Origin: Candidatus Limnocylindria bacterium
Lineage (GTDB): Bacteria > Chloroflexota > Limnocylindria > QHBO01
Direction: 5' to 3'
Assembly (NCBI GenBank): GCA_035697845.1
Contig: DASSCI010000015.1
Coordinates: forward strand, 1 to 60,492
Length of the DNA stretch: 60,492 nt
Shown here one piece after another: positions 50,526 through 59,522 of the stretch. The translations under genes and the position numbers were made by a program. Under the pieces are notes generated by a model, which had not been told where the DNA came from, did not search any database, and saw only the letters and a list, made by a program, of their open reading frames with translations. Within the stretch, counting starts at the first letter, position 1, and each line of letters starts with the position of its first letter.

Positions 50526-51218
50526 TCAGGGGTTGAGGTCCTCGACCCGTCCGGTGGCGAGGTAGACGACGTCCTCGCCGATGTTCGTCACCCGATCGCC
50601 GAGTCGCTCCAGGTGGTGGGCGGCAAAGAGCATGTGCGTCGTCTGGCGCGCGCGCTCGGGCGCCTCCGACAGCAGGCGCATCGCGTCCTCGTACACGCTG
50701 TTGTACAGGTGGTCGATCTCGTCGTCGCGCTGCGCGACCCCGCGCGCGTCGGCCTCGCTGACGTCGACCAGCGCTCGCATCGCGGCATGCAGCTGCTCGC
50801 GGCAGATCCGCTCCATCTGGGGGATCTGCTTGAGGATCGGCGTCTCCGGCTCACCGGCCAGCTGCTGGGCCAGCTTGGCGATGTTGACGGCATAGTCGCC
50901 CATGCGCTCGAGCTCGCTCGAGGCGTGGTACAGCGCCAGGAGCTCGCGCACGTCCCGGCCGACCGGAGCCTGGGTGGCGATGAGGGTCGTGATCTCGGTG
51001 TTGATCTGCTGCTGGAGCTCGTTCACGGCGGCGTCATCCCACCGCACCTGGTCGGCGAGATCCGTATCTCTGCTCACGAGCGCCAGGCCGGCCTGCTCGA
51101 GGGCGTGCTCGACCCGCGCGCCAAGGCGCAGCACATCGTCCTTGACACCGTCCAGTGCGCGGTCGAAGGTCGCCCTGGTGCCGGCGTGCTCGTCCATCGG
51201 GTCTGCCGCCTTGTCCAT
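50526..51218 (-). CDS. phoU: Phosphate signalling complex protein PhoU
   Basis: Two PhoU repeats carry the E(L/R)xGD motifs (ELERMGDYAVN, HLERLGDRVTN). Confidence 0.9.
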   Translation of the reverse strand: MDKAADPMDEHAGTRATFDRALDGVKDDVLRLGARVEHALEQAGLALVSRDTDLADQVRWDDAAVNELQQQINTEITTLIATQAPVGRDVRELLALYHASSELERMGDYAVNIAKLAQQLAGEPETPILKQIPQMERICREQLHAAMRALVDVSEADARGVAQRDDEIDHLYNSVYEDAMRLLSEAPERARQTTHMLFAAHHLERLGDRVTNIGEDVVYLATGRVEDLNP

Positions 51219-51231
51219 CGGTCCTCCCTCC

Positions 51232-52158
51232 TCAGCCGAAGCGGCCGGTGATGTAGTCCTCGGTGAGCTGGTGCTGCGGCCGCGTGAAGATCTCGTCGGT
51301 CGCGCCCATCTCGACGAGGTAGCCCGCCCGGTCGTCGCCCATGGTCAGGAAGGCGGTCAGGTCGCTTGCCCGCGCCGCCTGCTGCATGTTGTGCGTGACG
51401 ATGACGATCGTGTACTTCTCCTTCAGCTCGCGCATGAGCTCCTCGATCATCAGCGTCGCGATCGGGTCGAGGGCGGAGCACGGCTCGTCCATGAGGATCA
51501 CGTCCGGCTCCACGGCGATCGCTCGTGCGATGCACAGCCGCTGCTGCTGGCCGCCCGACAGCGCGGTGCCCGGCGAGCGCAACTTGTCCTTGACCTCGTC
51601 CCAGAGCGCCGCTCGTCGCAGCGACGACTCGACCAGCTTGTCCATGTCGCCACGGAAGCCGGCCACGCGCGGACCGAAGGCGACGTTGTCGTAAATGGAC
51701 TTCGGGAACGGATTGGGCTTCTGGAAGACCATGCCGATGCGGCGGCGGACCTCGACCGGGTCGATCCCATCGGCGTACAGGTCGACGCCGTGATAGCGGA
51801 TCGAGCCGGTGATGCGCGCCGTGTCGACCAGGTCGTTCATCCGGTTGAAGCTGCGCAGGAGCGTGCTCTTGCCACAGCCCGATGGACCGATGATCGCGGT
51901 GATCTGGTTCTGCGGAATGGCGAGGCTGATGTCGCGCACGGCGCGAAACGCACCGTAGTAGCAGGAGAGCTCGTCGAGCTCGAAGACGGCGTTGTCCGCC
52001 GCGAGTGCTGCGATCCCCTCACTCGCCGGTCGCTCGGCCGTCCGTGCCGCGGCGCTGTCCACGCGCCGTATTGTCGGCGCTGAGTCGTGAACCTGCTCGC
52101 CCATCGGCGGCGTGTTCGGGTGAGTGTCGACGGTCACGGGGTCACCACTTTCGGTCAT
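51232..52158 (-). CDS. pstB: Phosphate ABC transporter ATP-binding protein PstB
   Basis: [35 protein letters not shown]. The start is ambiguous (ATG 52158 overlapping pstA, or ATG 52104). Confidence 0.9.
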
Positions 52159-53059
52159 ATCGGTTCCGCAGGAGGATGGCGCTCGCATTGACGAGCAGGA
52201 TGACGACCATCAGCACCACGATCGCGGCGGCGGTCAGAGCTCGAAATTCGTCCTGCGGCTGACCGGACCAGCTGTAGACGATGGTCGGCAGGGCGGTGTA
52301 GGAGCCGGTCAGCATGTCGCCGATGGCCGTGCTCGTGAAGGTTCCGGCGATGGCGCCGACCATGAGCAGCGGGGCAGTCTCGCCGAAGGCGCGAGCCAGC
52401 GACAGGATCGTGCCGGTCAGGATGCCGGGCGCCGCATATGGCAGGACGTGGCTGCGGATCGTCTCCCAGCGGGTCGCGCCGACCCCGAAGGCGGCCTCGC
52501 GAATCGTGGCGGGCACCGCTCGCAGCGCCTCGGACGTAGTGATGACCACGACCGGCAAGACCAGCACGGCCAGCGTCAGGCCGCCGGCCACGAGCGTCCT
52601 CCCCAGGCCCAGGCTGCTGACGAAGACGGCGAGGCCAAGCAGGCCATAGACGATGGCCGGGACGCCCGCCAGGTTGCGGATGTTCGTTCGTATCAGCCGC
52701 GCCGCGCGCGTGTCCCGCGCGTACTCCTCCAGGTACACCGCGGCACCGATGCCGAGGGGCAGGGCCAGCGCGGCGACGAAGCCCATGAGCAGCACTGACC
52801 CGAGAATCCCCTGGAGGATGCCGGCCCGAGCCGGGCGCGACGACAGCGCCGACCCGAGAAAGTCGACCGGCCGTTCGGCGAACACGGGCAGCGAGCGCAC
52901 GACGATGTCGCCGATGAGGACCACCAGCACGCCGAGCGAGATCAGCAGGCTCAGGAGCAGGGCCACCTGCAGGACCAGGCCCAGCCGATCGCCTCCGTCG
53001 GACCGGAGGCGCCGCTCCACGACACCGCGGGCAGAGAGCGCCTGGACGGGCGCCGTCAT
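52142..53059 (-). CDS. pstA: Phosphate ABC transporter permease PstA
   Basis: A polytopic permease with an EAA-like loop ([15 protein letters not shown]), in the canonical pstSCAB position. Confidence 0.9.
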
Positions 53060-55285: not shown

Positions 55286-56287
55286 CTAGCCGAGGATCGG
55301 GTTCAGGATCAGGTAGGCGACTGCGGCCGTGAACCCGGACGCCGGAATGGTGAAGATCCACGCCGTCACGATCGAGCGCGCCACGCTCCAGTTCACGGTG
55401 CGCAGCCGATCCGACGAGCCGACGCCCATGATCGCCGAGCTGATGACGTGCGTGGTGCTGACCGGCATGCCGAAGTGGCTGGCTCCGAAGATCACGGACG
55501 CGGCCGTCGTCTCGGCCGCGAAGCCATGGACGGGATCGAGCTTGACGACCTTGGTCCCCATGGTACGGATGATCCGCCAGCCGCCGGCGGCCGTGCCGAG
55601 GCTGATCGCCGACGCGGCGAGCAGGATGACCCACAGCGGCACGTCGAAGGTGGGGATCACGCCGGCCGTCACGAGCGCCAGGGTCATGATTCCCATCGTC
55701 TTCTGCGCGTCGTTGCTGCCGTGGCTGAAGGCCATGTAGGCCGCCGACAGCACCTGCAGCCGGCGGAACACCGCGTTGAGGCGCCCCGGATGCGCGCGCC
55801 GGAAGACGTTGAAGAGCAGCGCCATGAACAGCAGGCCCAGCGTGAAGCCGATGATCGGCGAGCCGACCAGCGGCACGAGGACCTTGTTGATCACGCCGTC
55901 CAGCTGCCATGACCCGAATCCGGCGCTGATCAGCGCGGCGCCCAGCAGCCCACCGATGAGCGCGTGGCTCGAGGACGACGGGATCCCGAGCCGCCAGGTG
56001 ATCAGGTTCCAGATGATCGCGCCCACCAGCGCCGCCGCGATGACCGACTGTGATTCGACCCTGGTATCGATCAGGCCGGCCCCGACCGTGTGCGCCACGG
56101 CCGTCCCGGTCAGCGCCCCGATGAAGTTCGCCACCGCGCTCATGCCGATGGCGTAGCCCGGCTTCAGCGCGCGCGTGCTGACGCTGGTGGCAATCGCGTT
56201 TGCGGTGTCGTGGAAGCCGTTGATGTAGTCGAAGGCGACCGCCAGGCCCAGAACGGCGATCAGGGTGAGGGTGAAGCCCTCAGGCAT
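55286..56287 (-). CDS. pitA: Inorganic phosphate transporter, PiT family
   Basis: The N-terminal signature is FDYINGFHDTANAIATSV and the repeated C-terminal signature is AFSHGSNDAQKTMG. Confidence 0.9.
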   Translation of the reverse strand: MPEGFTLTLIAVLGLAVAFDYINGFHDTANAIATSVSTRALKPGYAIGMSAVANFIGALTGTAVAHTVGAGLIDTRVESQSVIAAALVGAIIWNLITWRLGIPSSSSHALIGGLLGAALISAGFGSWQLDGVINKVLVPLVGSPIIGFTLGLLFMALLFNVFRRAHPGRLNAVFRRLQVLSAAYMAFSHGSNDAQKTMGIMTLALVTAGVIPTFDVPLWVILLAASAISLGTAAGGWRIIRTMGTKVVKLDPVHGFAAETTAASVIFGASHFGMPVSTTHVISSAIMGVGSSDRLRTVNWSVARSIVTAWIFTIPASGFTAAVAYLILNPILG

Positions 56288-56897
56288 GCTTGACGACGAT
56301 GCGCTCGATCACGTTGGCCGCGTCCTCGCACGCGTCGATCGCGTCCTCGAGCAGGGCGTAGACGTCCTTCCACTTGATGACGTCGATCGGCTGGATGCCA
56401 TTCGTGAACAGGTCGGCCATGGCCTGGCGCGTGATGCGGTCACCTTCGTTCTCCAGCCGATGGACCTCGATCCAGTGCGGGCCGATGTCCTTGAAACCCT
56501 TCAGCTTGGAGAGGGCCTTCACCAGCTCCTCGCACTGCTTGGCGATGATGCCGGCCTGCTTCTGCGCGACCGATGTCGGCTCCTCGATCTTGTAGAGGAC
56601 GCAGGTATCGGCGATCTCCTCGATGAAGTCGAGGATGTCATCCAGGCGGCTGATGAGCTGGTGGATGTCCTCGCGGTCGAAGGGGGTGACGAAGGTGTTC
56701 TCGAGCTTGTGGCCGATGTCGTGGCTGAGCGCGTCGCCTCGTCGCTCGAGGTCGCGCAGCTGGCTCGCGAGCCGTTCGCGCTGGTCGTACGAGCGGAAGA
56801 ACTCCTCCAGCAGGCGCGCGCCGGCAAGGACGTTCTGCGCGTCCTCGACGAACAGCTCGAAGAACTTCTCCTCGCGTGGGATGAAGGGCAGGCGCAT
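56280..56897 (-). CDS. DUF47/TIGR00153-family PhoU-like protein (Pit accessory protein)
   Basis: ATG 56897 gives MRLPFIPREEKFFELFVEDAQNV.... It overlaps the pit start by 8 nt, the usual DUF47-Pit pairing. Confidence 0.85.
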   Translation of the reverse strand: MRLPFIPREEKFFELFVEDAQNVLAGARLLEEFFRSYDQRERLASQLRDLERRGDALSHDIGHKLENTFVTPFDREDIHQLISRLDDILDFIEEIADTCVLYKIEEPTSVAQKQAGIIAKQCEELVKALSKLKGFKDIGPHWIEVHRLENEGDRITRQAMADLFTNGIQPIDVIKWKDVYALLEDAIDACEDAANVIERIVVKHA

Positions 56898-57231
56898 GAG
56901 CGCGTTCAGGACCCCGTGCGGGCGCGCTGCCGATGGGCACTCCATGCGGTCGACGGCGCCATCGCAAGCCTACTCGCGCGGCGGCCTCCCTGCGTCAATC
57001 CCCCCGCCGTTCGCGCGGTTCAGTCGCGCCGCCGACCTGAATCGGCGTTCCCTCGGCGCGCATTCTTCCATCGCGGGCCGGCGAGTGGAAATCTGTGCGT
57101 CAGGCGGTGCATTACACGGCCGTCGAGCCAGCAGGGCACGGCTCCCGAGCGCGAATCGACGGTCGCACCGGCTCATCGGCCGGATAACGTGCCGTGGGCC
57201 ACACAATTTTCAAGTCGGGCGGCGTGCGAAC

Positions 57232-57253
57232 GGGCCGGTCCGAGGACCGGCCC
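57232..57253 (-). terminator. Strong GC hairpin immediately after the Cys-rich micro-ORF
   Basis: GGGCCGGTCC-ga-GGACCGGCCC has perfect 10-nt arms. On the minus strand it begins 9 nt after the micro-ORF stop. No clear U-tract follows. Confidence 0.5.
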
Positions 57254-57261
57254 GCATCGGT

Positions 57262-57321
57262 TCAGCAGCAGCCGGGACCGCAGTCGCAGCCGCCGTCGCA
57301 GCATCCGTCGTCGTGTCGCAT
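57262..57321 (-). CDS. 19-aa Cys-rich micropeptide MRHDDGCCDGGCDCGPGCC (metallothionein-like or leader peptide), not in the ORF track
   Basis: A GGAGGTGA SD sequence lies 5 nt before the ATG (rc of 57319-57321). Seven of 19 codons are Cys (all TGC). Stop is TGA. It is immediately followed by the hairpin above. Confidence 0.55.
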   Translation of the reverse strand: MRHDDGCCDGGCDCGPGCC

Positions 57322-57341
57322 CGTCCTCACCTCCTCTCGCC

Positions 57342-57497
57342 TCAGCAGGGTTGCGGGTCGCAGGGCCGTTCGGGCTTCAGGAAGTCGAAGAACCGGCGCC
57401 GGCAGGCGGTGACGGCATCCTTCATCCGGCGCTCGCGTGACTCGCGTTGCAGATCCGCTTCGTGGGCGGAGGCGAGCAGCTCGATCATCAGGCTCAT
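57342..57497 (-). CDS. Small protein (51 aa) with three Cys, function unknown; first gene divergent from arsR
   Basis: An internal ATG of the track ORF 57342..57749 gives MSLMIELLASAHEADLQRESRERRMKDAVTACRRRFFDFLKPERPCDPQPC. A GAGGA lies about 10 nt upstream. The longer ORF would run through the arsR promoter and start. Confidence 0.45.
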   Translation of the reverse strand: MSLMIELLASAHEADLQRESRERRMKDAVTACRRRFFDFLKPERPCDPQPC

Positions 57498-57546
57498 TGG
57501 TCGTCTGTCCTCATCGGTAAACGTTCGGCGGCCACGGTACGCGCAG

Positions 57547-57582
57547 ATATTGATCATTGTCAATATGGACCGATATCGATAT
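57547..57582. promoter_or_regulatory. Candidate ArsR/SmtB operator(s) in the divergent promoter
   Basis: ATATTGA-tcattg-TCAATAT sits at 57547-57566 (7-nt perfect inverted arms). A perfect 10-bp palindrome ATATCGATAT sits at 57573-57582. Both are AT-rich islands in GC-rich DNA, just upstream of the arsR ATG at 57597. Confidence 0.6.
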
Positions 57583-57596
57583 ACTCCGCCGCAGTC

Positions 57597-57887
57597 ATGA
57601 AGCGAACCGATCCCGACGTCGCCCTCTTGGCCGCACTTGCGGATCCGGTGCGGCTCTCGTTCGTGCGCCAGCTTGTCGACAACGCGGGCGTCTGTGCCTG
57701 CGACTTCAGCGAGTGCTGCACCGTCAGCCAGCCGACGATCAGCCATCACCTCAAGGTGCTGCGCGATGCTGGCGTGGTGGTGAGCGAACGCCAGGGCACG
57801 AACATCGTCTACTCGCTCTCGCCCGACTTCAGCCGCCGATGGTCCGCCATCGGCGCCAGCCTGGCCGGCCTGGTGCAGGTCGCCTGA
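57597..57887 (+). CDS. arsR: ArsR/SmtB-family metalloregulator
   Basis: LLAALADPVRLSFVRQL...GVCACDFSECCTVSQPTISHHLKVLRDAGVV is the ArsR wHTH, with Cys residues at the As(III)-type sensing position. Confidence 0.9.
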   Translation: MKRTDPDVALLAALADPVRLSFVRQLVDNAGVCACDFSECCTVSQPTISHHLKVLRDAGVVVSERQGTNIVYSLSPDFSRRWSAIGASLAGLVQVA

Positions 57888-57906
57888 CGCTCGAAGGAGA
57901 ACCGCC

Positions 57907-58722
57907 GTGACCGATCAGATCCACGACATGGTGCGCGAGCGGTACGCCCTCGCCGCGACGCAGGCCGCCACCGGATCGGGCGCCTGCTGCGGGCCTGAAG
58001 ATGGCATCGGCGCCGGACTGTACAGCGCGCTCGAACAGGCCGAGCTGCCCGATGCCGCGGTCCTGGCCTCGCTGGGATGCGGCAACCCGACGGCCGTCGC
58101 CGAGCTGCGCGAAGGGGAGCGCGTGCTGGATCTCGGGTCCGGCGGCGGGATCGATGTCCTCCTCTCCGCCAGGCGGGTCGGTCCTTCCGGACGCGCGTTC
58201 GGGCTGGACATGACGGACGAGATGTTGGCGCTGGCGCAGCGCAATGCGACCGACGCGGGCGCCACCAACGTCGAGTTCCTGAAGGGTCACATCGAGGCGA
58301 TCCCACTGCCGGCCAATTCGATCGACGTCGTCATCAGCAACTGCGTGATCAACCTCGCCGCGGACAAGGCAGCGGTTTTCAGGGAGATCGCCCGCGTGCT
58401 GCGTCCCGGCGGGCGGATCGGGATCAGCGACATCGTGGCCGAGGACGCGCTGACGCCCGATCAGCGCGCCGAGCGCGGCTCGTACGTGGGCTGCATCGCC
58501 GGGGCGCTCTCGTTCAGCGAGTTCGAACGTGGTCTCCGTAGCGCCGGTCTGGAGAACGTCTCGCTCACGTCGACTCACCTCGTGGCGGACGGGATGCACA
58601 GCGTCATCGCCAAGGCCACCAAGCCGATGTCGCCGGCCGAGCCGACGCATGCGCGGCCCGCGCTCGACGAGCTTGCTCTCGCCAGCTCCGGATGCGGCTG
58701 CGGAACCGGCGGCTGCTGTTGA
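57907..58722 (+). CDS. arsM: Arsenite S-adenosylmethionine methyltransferase ArsM
   Basis: The SAM motif is [12 protein letters not shown]. Conserved Cys residues are present (GACCGP, LGCGNP, NCVINL, GCIAGA). The C-terminal tail is Cys-rich ([12 protein letters not shown]). Confidence 0.9.
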
Positions 58723-58723
58723 G

Positions 58724-59149
58724 CTAGCCCGGCTCGGGGGTGCTGACGAGCTGGCGCACGCGATCGGCGATCGTGTCTCGCGCCGCTCGGAATGCCTCGA
58801 GCCTCGCGTCAGGACCTCCGTCCGCTGCGGACGGGTCAGGGATGCTCCAGTGGGCCATCGAGGCTGCACCCGGAAACGTTGGGCAGGCTTCCGCCGCCTC
58901 GTCGCAGACCGTGATGACCCGTTCGAAGGCCTGCCCGGCGAACTCGTCGAGATGCTTGCTTCGCTGACCGGTCAATTCCAGGGCGAGCTCGCGCATCACC
59001 TCGATCGTCTCGGGCCGGATCGCGGTCGCCTCGGTCCCCGCGCTGAAGGCTTCGAAGCGATCGCCGGCCCAGGCGTTGACCATCGCCTCGGCCATCTGGG
59101 ACCGAGCGCTGTTGTGGGTGCACAAGAAGAGCACGCGGCGTCGTTCCAT
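58724..59149 (-). CDS. arsC: Arsenate reductase ArsC, LMW-PTPase/thioredoxin-coupled type
   Basis: ATG 59149 gives MERRRVLFLCTHNSARSQMAEA... (CX5R P-loop), with later Cys residues in VCDEAAEACP. Confidence 0.85.
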   Translation of the reverse strand: MERRRVLFLCTHNSARSQMAEAMVNAWAGDRFEAFSAGTEATAIRPETIEVMRELALELTGQRSKHLDEFAGQAFERVITVCDEAAEACPTFPGAASMAHWSIPDPSAADGGPDARLEAFRAARDTIADRVRQLVSTPEPG

Positions 59150-59207
59150 GACCGGAAGTCTACGGCCGGGGCGAGTCATTGGCCGTGCCTGGCCTCGATG
59201 ACCAGTC

Positions 59208-59522
59208 TCAGCCGAGGCCGGCGAGGCGGGCGACCGCCGCGGCGGCCGCCGCGATGACCACAACCAGAAGCACCGGCGCGCGCAGGGCGAGAGCAACGGC
59301 CGCCGCGGCCAGCCCCAGGAGCCGGGCGTCGATCACCAGCTGCTGCCCGCTCGCGAGCGCCGCCGTGGCGACCAGTGCGGCCAGCAGTGCAGGCGCAAGG
59401 AGCGCGACCACCCGCTGAACTTGTGCGGGCAGCGGCCTGCTCCCCAGAAGCACCGGGCCGGCGGCCTTGATGGCCATCGTGCCGGCGCCGACGGCGAGGA
59501 CGATCGCCCACGACTCGCTCAC
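59208..59522 (-). CDS. azlD: AzlD-family branched-chain amino acid transport protein
   Basis: Its GTG start overlaps the azlC stop (GTGA). 104 aa, very hydrophobic (WAIVLAVGAGTMAIKAAGPVLLG...). Confidence 0.75.
   Translation of the reverse strand: MSESWAIVLAVGAGTMAIKAAGPVLLGSRPLPAQVQRVVALLAPALLAALVATAALASGQQLVIDARLLGLAAAAVALALRAPVLLVVVIAAAAAAVARLAGLG

What the first reader, a model, noticed from the sequence alone, without database searches (positions are those of the whole stretch)
57232..57597. Two unannotated micro-ORFs divergent from arsR, including a 19-aa peptide with 7 cysteines followed by a strong hairpin
Neither ORF is in the supplied track because both are shorter than 60 aa. On the minus strand, starting from the AT-rich palindromic ArsR-type operator region (57547-57582), I read two ORFs.
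- A 51-aa ORF (57497-57342): MSLMIELL...ACRRRFFDFLKPERPCDPQPC.
- Seventeen nt later, behind a near-perfect SD sequence (GGAGGTGA), a second ORF (57321-57262): ATG CGA CAC GAC GAC GGA TGC TGC GAC GGC GGC TGC GAC TGC GGT CCC GGC TGC TGC TGA = MRHDDGCCDGGCDCGPGCC.

The Cys density (37%) and the CC/CxC spacing resemble minimal metallothioneins; the Neurospora Cu-MT, at about 25 aa, also has 7 Cys. They also echo the GCGCGTGGCC tail of the neighbouring ArsM.

There are two non-exclusive readings.
- (a) It is an ArsR-controlled mini-metallothionein or As(III)/soft-metal buffer.
- (b) It is a Cys-codon-rich leader peptide. Its stop sits 9 nt before a 10-bp GC hairpin (57232-57253), upstream of the long leader of the DUF47-Pit operon. 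Pit-type transporters are a known route of arsenate entry.

Either reading would be new biology for an ars locus.
Basis: partly seen in the sequence, partly recalled or inferred. Interest (0 to 1): 0.65.

Follow-up and report, generated by a model that had tools for sequence, protein, structure and literature searches.

The report
Tiny cysteine-rich gene pair beside arsR
Next to the arsenic-sensing repressor gene of an uncultured soil Chloroflexota bacterium lies a conserved, transcribed pair of unannotated mini-genes (51 and 19 codons, the second one-third cysteine); it most likely adds thiol-rich arsenic-binding parts to the arsenic-resistance system and is unlikely to be a leader for the phosphate transporter downstream.

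Summary
Corrections: the 19-aa peptide has 6 Cys (32%), not 7, and the spacer between the ORFs is 20 nt, not 17.

The organism is a Candidatus Limnocylindria (Chloroflexota) soil bacterium.

- **ORF1:** a real protein family of 78 clusters, dN/dS about 0.33, always beside arsR. It is either divergent from arsR or the first gene of an ORF1-arsR-arsM operon.
- **ORF2:** present in all 15 divergent-type loci fetched, of which 10 carry distinct peptides of 18-21 aa with 6-9 Cys. Arg2, an internal CC and the terminal CC-stop are invariant, with synonymous changes.
- **Hairpin:** a conserved stem-loop follows ORF2 in all but one lineage.
- **Transcription:** soil metatranscriptome contigs from at least 10 runs start 10-14 nt below the predicted start site, leave the promoter uncovered, span both ORFs and run past the hairpin.
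- **ArsM tail:** ORF2 resembles the ArsM C-terminal tail (GCGCGTGGCC*).
- **Downstream genes:** these differ between lineages (DUF47-Pit, PstS, or unrelated genes).

Best reading: an ArsR-controlled small-protein operon whose Cys peptide binds As(III) or soft metals. This function is inferred, not shown. A Cys-sensing attenuator is less likely.

The parts
57547..57582 (.). Tandem inverted-repeat operator (ATATCGA-N6-TCCATAT overlapping ATATTGA-N6-TCAATAT) between arsR and ORF1. It overlaps both divergent promoters.
   Evidence: Read directly. The same tandem repeats lie upstream of ORF1 in all loci, including the co-directional ORF1-arsR-arsM loci L023-L025.
57534..57563 (-). ORF1-ORF2 promoter: -35 TTGACA (57563-57558), 18-nt spacer, -10 TACCGT (57539-57534, TAnnnT type).
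   Evidence: TTGACA followed after 16-18 nt by TAnnnT is conserved in every locus. RNA contigs begin 17-21 nt downstream of the -10 element.
57513..57517 (-). Upstream boundary of RNA contigs, taken as the approximate 5' end of the small-ORF mRNA. The true start is probably near 57527.
   Evidence: Contigs from X27-X31, X34, X36 and X37 end at 57513-57517, and X33 at 57506. Depth is zero at 57532-57593 in these runs.
57342..57497 (-). ORF1, a 51-aa protein. It forms a long N-terminal helix and has conserved Cys32 (CRRR), Cys46 and usually a C-terminal Cys. It is a member of an ars-linked small-protein family.
   Evidence: 17 close and 78 total clusters, plus 14 HMMER representatives. Synonymous changes occur in invariant amino-acid columns and dN/dS is 0.33. 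AF2 predicts a helix over residues 2-40 with pLDDT above 90. Always adjacent to arsR.
57327..57334 (-). Shine-Dalgarno site GGAGGTGA of ORF2, 5 nt upstream of the ATG (GGAGG core 8 nt upstream).
   Evidence: GGAGGTGAGG (or GAGGTGAGG) is conserved upstream of ORF2 in all divergent-type loci.
57262..57321 (-). ORF2, a 19-aa peptide MRHDDGCCDGGCDCGPGCC with 6 Cys.
   Evidence: Ten distinct variants of 18-21 aa with 6-9 Cys. Arg2, the CC at positions 7-8 and the terminal CC-TGA are invariant. TGC/TGT and CGA/CGC/CGG synonymous changes occur. dN/dS is 0.40.
57230..57255 (-). GC-rich stem-loop (11 pairs, loop CUCG) that starts 6-8 nt after the ORF2 stop and has no U-tract.
   Evidence: Fold. Strong hairpins of -22 to -37 kcal/mol occur in 12 of 13 loci folded. 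94% of cells are paired and 3 pairs show compensatory changes. No terminator-like site was found by the consensus scan.
56898..57229 (-). Untranslated spacer between the hairpin and DUF47. RNA contigs run 30-150 nt into it, and in one run run right through it.
   Evidence: Left ends of RNA contigs lie at 57198, 57197, 57169, 57150 and 57076. The X35 contig spans 56668-57425 at depth 21.5. The length and content of this spacer vary between lineages.
57597..57887 (+). arsR, an ArsR/SmtB repressor with a conserved CACDF(S/T)ECC cysteine cluster. It is divergent from ORF1, and its mRNA has little or no leader.
   Evidence: Pfam HTH_5 and NCBIfam HTH_metalloreg. Promoter TTGTCA-17-TATACT ends at 57585. 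An RNA contig starts at 57600. The Cys cluster is conserved in 11 loci.
57907..58722 (+). arsM, an arsenite methyltransferase. Its C-terminal tail GCGCGTGGCC* (58690-58722) resembles ORF2.
   Evidence: NCBIfam PRK11873 scores 293 bits against a cutoff of 263. All ArsM tails end in GGCC*. The arsM 3' end is the best non-self nucleotide match to ORF2 in the window: score 35, next best 29, mean 16, sd 4.3.

Best explanation
The region is a bicistronic small-protein operon (ORF1, ORF2, then a 3' stem-loop) that belongs to the ars system of Candidatus Limnocylindria.

**How it is controlled (inferred).** Its sigma-70-type promoter lies inside the tandem ArsR operator shared with the divergent arsR-arsM operon. 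ArsR should therefore repress it and As(III) should derepress it.

**ORF1.** It encodes a 51-aa helical protein with three conserved cysteines.

**ORF2.** It is translated from a near-perfect Shine-Dalgarno site into an 18-21-aa acidic peptide with 6-9 cysteines arranged as CC and CxC pairs and a terminal CC. In effect it is a free-standing copy of the ArsM C-terminal Cys tail. I infer that the peptide binds As(III), or another soft metal, through thiolates. It would act as a buffer or sponge, or hand As(III) over to ArsM.

**The stem-loop.** It marks and stabilises the 3' end of the operon but is leaky.

**Shown:** the existence of the ORFs, their codon-level conservation, their linkage to arsR, transcription with a defined 5' boundary, and a conserved hairpin.

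**Inferred:** the strand of the RNA, translation, control by ArsR and arsenite, and thiolate binding.
For: 1. **ORF2 is conserved as an ORF.** It keeps its Shine-Dalgarno site, start, frame and stop in all 15 divergent-type loci fetched, across ORF1 identities of 43-98%. Cys and Arg2 are kept through synonymous codon changes.
2. **ORF1 is ars-linked in two gene orders.** It is divergent from arsR(-arsM) in one. In the other it sits 3-9 nt upstream of arsR in ORF1-arsR-arsM operons, behind the same operator.
3. **The downstream neighbours change while the module stays constant.**
   - DUF47-Pit follows in most loci.
   - PstS-like ORFs follow in L009.
   - A 91-aa ORF, an opposite-strand ORF and SurE follow in L026/L027.
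4. **The RNA evidence fits a discrete transcript.**
   - At least 10 soil metatranscriptome runs from several studies give exact-match contigs from about 57515 across both ORFs.
   - Depth over the promoter is zero.
   - A separate arsR contig starts at 57600.
   - Within the last 20 kb of the window this is the second most consistently detected region.
5. **ORF2 resembles the ArsM tail.** The resemblance holds at the peptide level (GCDCGPGCC* against GCGCGTGGCC*). At the nucleotide level the arsM 3' end is the best non-self match in the window.
6. **ArsR looks arsenite-responsive.** It carries a conserved CACDF(S/T)ECC thiolate cluster and is followed by arsM and a thioredoxin-type arsC.
7. 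**There is a precedent.** SmtB/SmtA is an ArsR-family repressor divergent from a metallothionein gene (own knowledge).
Against: - There is no evidence of translation and no metal-binding data.
- Logan contigs carry no strand information.
- The small-ORF RNA is present in runs where arsM RNA is nearly absent (X29, X30), so tight co-regulation with arsR-arsM is not evident.
- ORF2 is absent within 4 kb either side of ORF1 in the co-directional loci L023-L025, so it is not essential to the ars system.
- The similarity to the ArsM tail is short and low in complexity, and could be convergent.
- No known metallothionein family matches.
- Transcripts pass the hairpin and in X35 reach DUF47, which leaves room for a regulatory role.
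Confidence: 0.45

Rival explanations
1. ORF2 is a Cys-codon sensor, that is a leader peptide. When charged tRNA-Cys is scarce, for example when thiols are depleted by As(III), ribosomes stall in the Cys tract. This would change how the following stem-loop forms or acts, and so change read-through into DUF47-Pit or Pst. The model is the polycysteine sORF attenuators of mycobacteria.
For: - ORF2 has consecutive Cys codons, including an invariant C-terminal CC, immediately before a conserved hairpin.
- Polycysteine sORFs are proven cysteine-responsive attenuators in mycobacteria (bioRxiv 10.1101/834739).
- RNA contigs cross the hairpin, and in X35 one contig joins ORF1-ORF2 to the 5' part of DUF47.
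- All divergent-type loci have phosphate-uptake genes somewhere downstream.
Against: - No U-tract terminator was found.
- No conserved alternative (antiterminator) pairing was found. The only candidate, CGGUCC with GGACCG, depends on a variable codon.
- The stem starts 6-8 nt after the stop codon. A ribosome stalled with Cys18 or Cys19 in the A site would at most reach its first pair (inference from footprint geometry).
- The downstream genes are PitA-like and PstS, not cysteine or sulfur genes. PitA scores 160 bits against 78 for CysP.
- In L026/L027 a 91-aa ORF, an opposite-strand ORF and SurE intervene. In L009 DUF47-Pit is absent.
- DUF47 has its own conserved TAGGCT (-10-like) element and about 95 nt of conserved leader.
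- ORF2 is not leaderless and is the second cistron. Arg2 is conserved at the amino-acid level.
Confidence: 0.18
2. ORF2 is translated and functional, but not as an arsenic or metal binder. It could be, for example, a redox or thiol-buffering peptide, a partner or cofactor of ORF1, or a peptide that regulates ArsR or ArsM activity.
For: - The conservation and expression data are the same as for the best explanation.
- ORF2 always travels with ORF1, 19-25 nt downstream of it.
- The transcript is detected even where arsM RNA is low.
Against: - Nothing points to a specific alternative function.
- No modification enzymes lie nearby.
- The CC and CxC motifs, the ars context and the mimicry of the ArsM tail all fit thiolate coordination of As(III) best.
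Confidence: 0.2
3. ORF2 is a non-functional relic or a chance ORF. It could be, for example, a duplicated fragment of the arsM 3' end left behind when arsR-arsM was inverted, and only ORF1 and the hairpin matter.
For: - ORF2 resembles the arsM 3' end.
- ORF2 is missing from the co-directional architecture.
- High-GC genomes produce many spurious ORFs.
Against: - The Shine-Dalgarno site, start codon, frame, length (18-21 codons) and TGA stop are kept in 10 distinct variants.
- Cys columns change only synonymously, Arg2 uses three codons, and dN/dS is 0.40.
- No comparable ORF appears in the window or in simulations.
Confidence: 0.05

Closest known systems
SmtB-SmtA divergon of Synechococcus (ArsR/SmtB repressor divergent from a metallothionein gene; own knowledge)
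   Same: An ArsR/SmtB-family repressor gene and a gene for a small Cys-rich product are transcribed divergently from a shared inverted-repeat operator-promoter region.
   Different: - ORF2 has 19 aa against 56 and no similarity to BmtA/SmtA or any Pfam or NCBIfam family.
- It is the second cistron, behind a 51-aa protein.
- The sensor has an alpha3-type Cys cluster and is linked to arsM and arsC, which points to arsenic rather than zinc.
- The host is Chloroflexota.
Polycysteine leaderless sORF attenuators of mycobacteria (Canestrari et al., bioRxiv 10.1101/834739)
   Same: Both are unannotated short ORFs with consecutive Cys codons and a C-terminal Cys tract, conserved through synonymous changes and followed by RNA structure.
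   Different: - ORF2 is Shine-Dalgarno-led and not the first cistron.
- The downstream genes are phosphate transporters or unrelated genes, not cysteine metabolism.
- No duplex that sequesters a downstream ribosome-binding site was found.
- The module keeps its place beside arsR while the downstream genes change.
C-terminal Cys-rich tail of ArsM (here GCGCGTGGCC* or GCCGGGGCC*)
   Same: Both share a G/C/D-rich motif that ends in a vicinal CC at the very C-terminus. The arsM 3' end is the best nucleotide match to ORF2 in the window. Both sit in the same ars locus.
   Different: ORF2 is a free-standing peptide with its own Shine-Dalgarno site and start codon, on the opposite strand. Whether the likeness reflects duplication or convergence is unresolved.
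Minimal eukaryotic thiol peptides: Neurospora Cu-metallothionein (about 25 aa, 7 Cys) and phytochelatins (gamma-Glu-Cys)n-Gly (own knowledge)
   Same: All are very short and made mostly of Cys plus acidic residues and Gly. Phytochelatins are known As(III) ligands.
   Different: ORF2 is gene-encoded and ribosomally made in a bacterium, and shows no homology to these. Phytochelatins are made enzymatically.
ArsD metallochaperone (Cys12, Cys13 and Cys18 hand As(III) to ArsA; own knowledge)
   Same: It is a small ars-operon protein that uses a vicinal CC plus a third Cys to bind As(III) and pass it to a partner enzyme.
   Different: ArsD has about 120 aa and a thioredoxin-like fold. No ArsA or ArsD is present in this locus, and neither ORF1 nor ORF2 shows any sequence similarity to them.

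Membership tests
Metallothionein (operational definition) | Very small product with a high Cys content, arranged in CC, CxC or CxxC motifs | tested here: met
   6 of 19 residues are Cys (32%), arranged as CC...C.C...CC. Variants have 6-9 Cys in 18-21 aa.
Metallothionein (operational definition) | Few or no aromatic residues | tested here: met
   No Phe, Trp or Tyr occurs in 9 of 10 variants. L015 has one Tyr. His occurs in several.
Metallothionein (operational definition) | Sequence membership of a described metallothionein family (e.g. bacterial BmtA/SmtA) | tested here: not met
   No Pfam hit at E <= 0.1 and no NCBIfam hit at E <= 1. No tblastn hit in plasmids.
Metallothionein (operational definition) | Forms metal-thiolate clusters and binds metal stoichiometrically | not testable with these tools
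   This needs the synthetic peptide and ESI-MS, ITC or spectroscopy.
SmtB/SmtA-type divergon | ArsR/SmtB-family repressor divergently transcribed from the Cys-rich gene, with an inverted-repeat operator in the shared region | tested here: met
   arsR lies at 57597-57887 on the plus strand. The operator at 57547-57582 overlaps the -35 of the ORF1-ORF2 promoter and the arsR promoter. It is conserved in all loci.
SmtB/SmtA-type divergon | Metal-dependent derepression of the Cys-rich gene | tested here: inconclusive
   The RNA is present in many soil runs. It is high together with arsM in X35, but is also present where arsM is low. No controlled arsenic exposure data are available.
Polycysteine sORF attenuator (mycobacterial Cys 'ribulon') | At least 2 consecutive Cys codons, typically in a C-terminal tract | tested here: met
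   CC at codons 7-8 and 18-19, with the terminal CC invariant.
Polycysteine sORF attenuator (mycobacterial Cys 'ribulon') | Leaderless sORF that is the first gene of the transcript | tested here: not met
   ORF2 has a GGAGGTGA Shine-Dalgarno site and lies 20 nt after ORF1. The RNA 5' boundary is about 195 nt upstream of it.
Polycysteine sORF attenuator (mycobacterial Cys 'ribulon') | Controls operonic genes of cysteine or sulfur metabolism | tested here: not met
   The downstream genes are DUF47, a PitA-like transporter and PstS. CysP is the weaker match. Other lineages have different downstream genes.
Polycysteine sORF attenuator (mycobacterial Cys 'ribulon') | RNA duplex within reach of the stalled ribosome that masks the downstream ribosome-binding site (or a terminator with a competing antiterminator) | tested here: not met
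   The hairpin lies about 330 nt from the DUF47 start. No conserved alternative pairing and no U-tract were found.
Polycysteine sORF attenuator (mycobacterial Cys 'ribulon') | Downstream expression responds to cysteine supply | not testable with these tools
   This needs reporter assays or proteomics with and without cysteine.
ars operon accessory gene (ORF1 family) | Conserved physical linkage to arsR or arsM across divergent genomes and gene orders | tested here: met
   Every ORF1 locus with readable flanks has arsR adjacent. ORF1 is divergent from arsR in L001-L022 and L026/27, and co-directional 3-9 nt upstream of arsR-arsM in L023-L025.
Bacterial selenoprotein (UGA plus SECIS hairpin) | A conserved reading frame continues beyond the UGA | tested here: not met
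   The frames after the TGA are not conserved. L004 differs from L001-L003 by a 1-nt indel just after the stop, and the window extension hits a TAA.

The most novel reading that the evidence does not exclude
ORF2 is the smallest known gene-encoded, ribosomally made arsenic-binding thiol peptide, a phytochelatin-like mini-metallothionein of 18-21 aa. It evolved as a detached copy of the ArsM C-terminal tail. It works with the 51-aa three-Cys protein ORF1 as a new ArsR-controlled As(III) capture and hand-off module for ArsM in abundant soil Chloroflexota.
Probability: 0.3. Interest if true: 0.75.

Novelty: new variant of a known kind. Interest (0 to 1): 0.6.

Why it matters
Ars loci have been catalogued intensively, yet neither a 51-aa three-Cys protein nor a 19-aa six-Cys peptide is among the described ars genes. 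None turned up in two literature searches or in Pfam, NCBIfam or PDB.

If the peptide binds As(III), three things would follow:
- It would be a gene-encoded functional analogue of phytochelatins.
- It would be a minimal scaffold for arsenic or metal binding, useful for biosensing or sequestration.
- It would suggest what the enigmatic Cys tails of ArsM enzymes are for.

Limnocylindria are widespread, uncultured soil bacteria. This transcript is among the most consistently detected from this genome region in soil metatranscriptomes, so the module may matter for arsenic cycling in soils.

The case also shows that gene callers with a 30-codon floor hide conserved, expressed genes.

Tried and rejected
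- **Rfam:** a scan of 56000-58500 at E <= 1 found nothing.
- **Terminator scan:** the consensus scan found no terminator-like site, because there is no U-tract.
- **Selenocysteine recoding (TGA plus hairpin read as SECIS):** rejected. The frames beyond the stop are not conserved.
- **Alternative-frame 43-aa ORF 57304-57173, which overlaps ORF2 and the hairpin:** rejected. Its ATG (GGATGC) is GGCTGC in L005 and L006.
- **70-71-aa extended forms of ORF1 called by some pipelines:** rejected. They would start upstream of the RNA 5' boundary, inside the operator.
- **Pit as a CysP-type sulfate permease, which would have rescued the cysteine-attenuator idea:** PitA scores 160 bits against 78 for CysP, and PstS and PstB lie downstream.
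- **Hairpin as a dispersed repeat:** there is no second copy in the window.
- **tblastn of both ORFs against plasmids:** no match.
- **PDB profile search with ORF1:** no match. No fold search was run, because a single helix gives meaningless matches.
- **Independent RNA check in another lineage:** The runs found for L009 are labelled 'METAGENOMIC RNA-Seq' and cover the promoter too, so they are not clean RNA. They do show a drop from about 30-67 to 3.4 just after the hairpin in X61.
- **Literature searches for an ars-linked Cys micro-ORF or for ArsM-tail function:** nothing specific was found.
Full report
**1. The observation**

ORF2 reads MRHDDGCCDGGCDCGPGCC and lies behind GGAGGTGA.

ORF2 is followed by a stem-loop at 57255-57230 with 11 pairs and the loop CUCG. 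The AT-rich region 57547-57582 consists of two overlapping inverted repeats, ATATCGA-N6-TCCATAT and ATATTGA-N6-TCAATAT.

Two details are wrong. The peptide has six TGC codons, so 6 of 19 residues are Cys (32%), not 7. The ORF1-ORF2 spacer is 20 nt, not 17.

The ORF is not a chance product of a 70% GC genome. It is the only ORF of 12-30 aa with at least 6 Cys in the window, and none occurred in 30 Markov simulations.

**2. Context and host**

- On the plus strand:
  - arsR (57597-57887), with the Cys cluster CACDFSECC.
  - arsM (57907-58722), which scores above the NCBIfam arsenite-methyltransferase cutoff.
- On the minus strand near these: a thioredoxin-type arsC and azlCD.
- On the minus strand downstream of the hairpin:
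  - DUF47/PhoU_div. Its true start is probably 56897, because the upstream stretch shows indels that are not multiples of three in relatives.
  - A PitA-like transporter, then pstS, further on pstB and phoU.
- These assignments rest.
- The closest genomes are Candidatus Limnocylindria MAGs (Chloroflexota) from soil.

**3. ORF1 is a real, ars-linked protein family**

- A first search found 17 homologous clusters.
- A profile search of 1.84 billion representatives found 14.
- A profile search of the clustered database found 78 clusters, all short (47-78 aa). Every one that carries a source name is from Limnocylindria or Chloroflexota.
- The consensus is MxLxxELLASAHEADLxRxARxRRLxxLxxxCRRRLLGxLPxxxxCxPxxx. 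R18 and C32 are invariant and C46 nearly so.
- Invariant amino-acid columns carry 2-3 different codons, and pooled dN/dS is 0.33.
- AF2 predicts one long helix over residues 2-40 (pLDDT above 90) and a floppy Cys-bearing tail.
- No PDB, Pfam or NCBIfam relative was found.

Context was read in 24 ORF1 loci, and arsR is adjacent wherever the flank is readable.

- In the window's clade, down to 43% ORF1 identity, ORF1 is divergent from arsR(-arsM).
- In three distant members (35-37% identity; L023-L025), ORF1 lies 3-9 nt upstream of arsR-arsM on the same strand. It sits behind the same TTGACA-in-operator promoter, and no phosphate genes are nearby.

ORF1 therefore belongs to the ars system, not to the phosphate transporters.

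**4. ORF2 is conserved as a coding micro-ORF**

Every divergent-type locus has ORF2 19-25 nt after ORF1, behind GGAGGTGAGG (or GAGGTGAGG). The ten distinct peptides are:

- MRHDDGCCDGGCDCG(P/T)GCC (two variants)
- MRTNAGCCDCNCDCGHGCC
- VRRNDGCCGGGCCGGGCC
- MRNNDGCCDEGCDCGSGCC
- VRHCDGCCEGGCDCGPGCC
- VRYLDSCCDGACDCGPGCC
- VRNDDCCDCDCCCCRDCC
- VRTNDDCCDCGCDCHDCC
- MRGNDDCCEGCCEAAGGACC
- MRNNDGCCDGGCCEATGGACC

Arg2 is invariant and uses CGA, CGC and CGG. The first CC, a middle Cys and the terminal CC-TGA are also invariant, with TGC/TGT exchanges. Pooled dN/dS is 0.40. The overlapping alternative frame and any read-through frame are not conserved. No ORF2-like ORF was found within 4 kb either side of ORF1 in the co-directional loci.

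**5. The hairpin**

Twelve of the 13 loci folded have a strong stem-loop (-22 to -37 kcal/mol) whose core starts 5-8 nt after the stop. In the alignment 94% of cells pair and three pairs show compensatory changes, for example UCC/GGA becoming CCAC/GUGG in L026. No U-tract follows, and the terminator scan finds nothing.

**6. Transcription**

Soil metatranscriptome contigs that match exactly were found in at least 10 runs from several studies.

- They start at 57513-57517, which is 17-21 nt below the conserved TAnnnT -10 element. This is about 10-14 nt short of the expected start, as is usual for assembled ends.
- They span both ORFs.
- They leave 57532-57593 uncovered.
- A separate arsR contig begins at 57600, 3 nt into the arsR ATG, so arsR mRNA has little or no leader.

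The uncovered promoter argues that this is RNA, not contaminating DNA. The strand is inferred from the promoter, not measured.

The downstream ends are ragged (57198, 57197, 57169, 57150, 57076). In X35, where arsM is at depth 39-65, one contig at depth 21.5 runs from 57425 to 56668, inside DUF47. The hairpin is therefore leaky. The ragged ends beyond a U-less hairpin would also fit factor-dependent termination followed by trimming back to a protective stem-loop; this is an inference.

In the last 20 kb of the window, this short region is the second most consistently detected in four RNA runs, after pstB.

**7. Relation to the ArsM tail**

All ArsM proteins of these loci end in a Cys tail that finishes GGCC*. 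It reads [29 protein letters not shown] or GCCAADGGCC. ORF2 ends GCDCGPGCC*. The arsM 3' end is the best non-self nucleotide match to ORF2 in the window: score 35, against 29 for the next best, with a background mean of 16 and sd of 4.3. ORF2 therefore looks like a detached ArsM tail. Whether this is due to duplication during the arsR-arsM inversion or to convergence cannot be settled on about 30 low-complexity nucleotides.

**8. Mechanism**

Best supported is an ArsR-gated bicistronic operon that makes a three-Cys helical protein and a highly translated six-Cys acidic peptide. The peptide would bind As(III), or another thiophilic metal, as a sponge or as a donor to ArsM.

The logic matches SmtB/SmtA (own knowledge), but the product is not homologous and is far smaller.

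The rival is a cysteine-sensing leader like the mycobacterial polycysteine sORFs (10.1101/834739). It fails four of that family's defining features here:

- ORF2 is not leaderless and not the first cistron.
- There is no cysteine-metabolism cargo.
- There is no duplex masking a ribosome-binding site, and no antiterminator.
- The downstream genes vary: PstS in L009; a 91-aa ORF, an opposite-strand ORF and SurE before DUF47-Pit in L026.

Geometry also argues against it. A ribosome stalled on the last Cys codons protects about 7 nt past the stop and so barely reaches the stem. Because read-through RNA exists, I keep this rival at about 0.18.

**9. Novelty and verdict**

Neither ORF has a described family or literature record. 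I rate the finding as a new variant of a known kind: an ArsR/SmtB-controlled thiolate-rich product. The finding is real, conserved and expressed. Its biochemical role is inferred. Interest is 0.6.

Noticed in passing
window 56898-56990 (minus strand); also L001, L005-L008, L012, L015, L016, L020, L022: A stretch of about 95 nt directly upstream of the DUF47 start is highly conserved: GAGTAGGCTTGCGATGGCGCCGTCGACCGnATGGAGTGCCCATCGGCAGCGCGCCCGCACGGGGTCC. It contains a TAGGCT -10-like hexamer. Indels that are not multiples of 3 show it is non-coding, so the 221-aa DUF47 call starting at 56945 is probably too long and the true start is 56897. RNAalifold finds little covariation, and Rfam has no hit.
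   Followed up: partly
window about 57000-57217 (minus strand); L005, L007, L012, L016: Between the hairpin and DUF47 lie one or two copies of a unit of about 150 nt that begins GACTYGAAR and contains GTGY-N8-RCAC (4-bp stem with covariation GTGC/GCAC against GTGT/ACAC). L008 looks like a recombinant of the two copies. L006, L015 and L020 lack the units altogether. It could be a promoter or regulator site, or a small insertion. CGACTYGAAR occurs only once in the window.
   Followed up: partly
window 57585-57600: arsR appears to be translated from an mRNA with little or no leader. The -10 TATACT ends at 57585, the ATG is at 57597, and an RNA contig starts at 57600. In L009 the ORF1 ATG lies only 6 nt after its -10 (TACAGT), so ORF1 may be leaderless there.
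   Followed up: partly
window 58690-58722; L001, L012, L022-L025: Every ArsM in this clade carries a C-terminal Cys tail ending in GGCC*, in addition to the N-terminal ACCGP motif. The function of this tail is not known to me.
   Followed up: partly
window 51172-51838 (pstB 51232-52188, minus strand; phoU 50526-51218): The pstB region is by far the most strongly covered part of the last 20 kb in soil RNA runs (depth 5-47), which suggests active phosphate scavenging. The high conservation of ABC ATPases may inflate this figure.
   Followed up: no
L022 6080-7210; L026 7803-8150: In some relatives a chromate-transporter (ChrA) gene sits directly after Pit. This makes an oxyanion gene cluster (arsenic, phosphate, chromate).
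   Followed up: no
window 58724-59296 (minus strand): The 190-aa arsC ORF is probably over-extended at its N-terminus. The LMWPc domain starts at residue 55, and the L001 homologue is called at 141 aa.
   Followed up: no
L023 5646-6947; L025 5323-6558: In the co-directional ORF1-arsR-arsM loci an MFS transporter follows arsM. It may be the arsenical efflux component that is missing from the window's locus.
   Followed up: no
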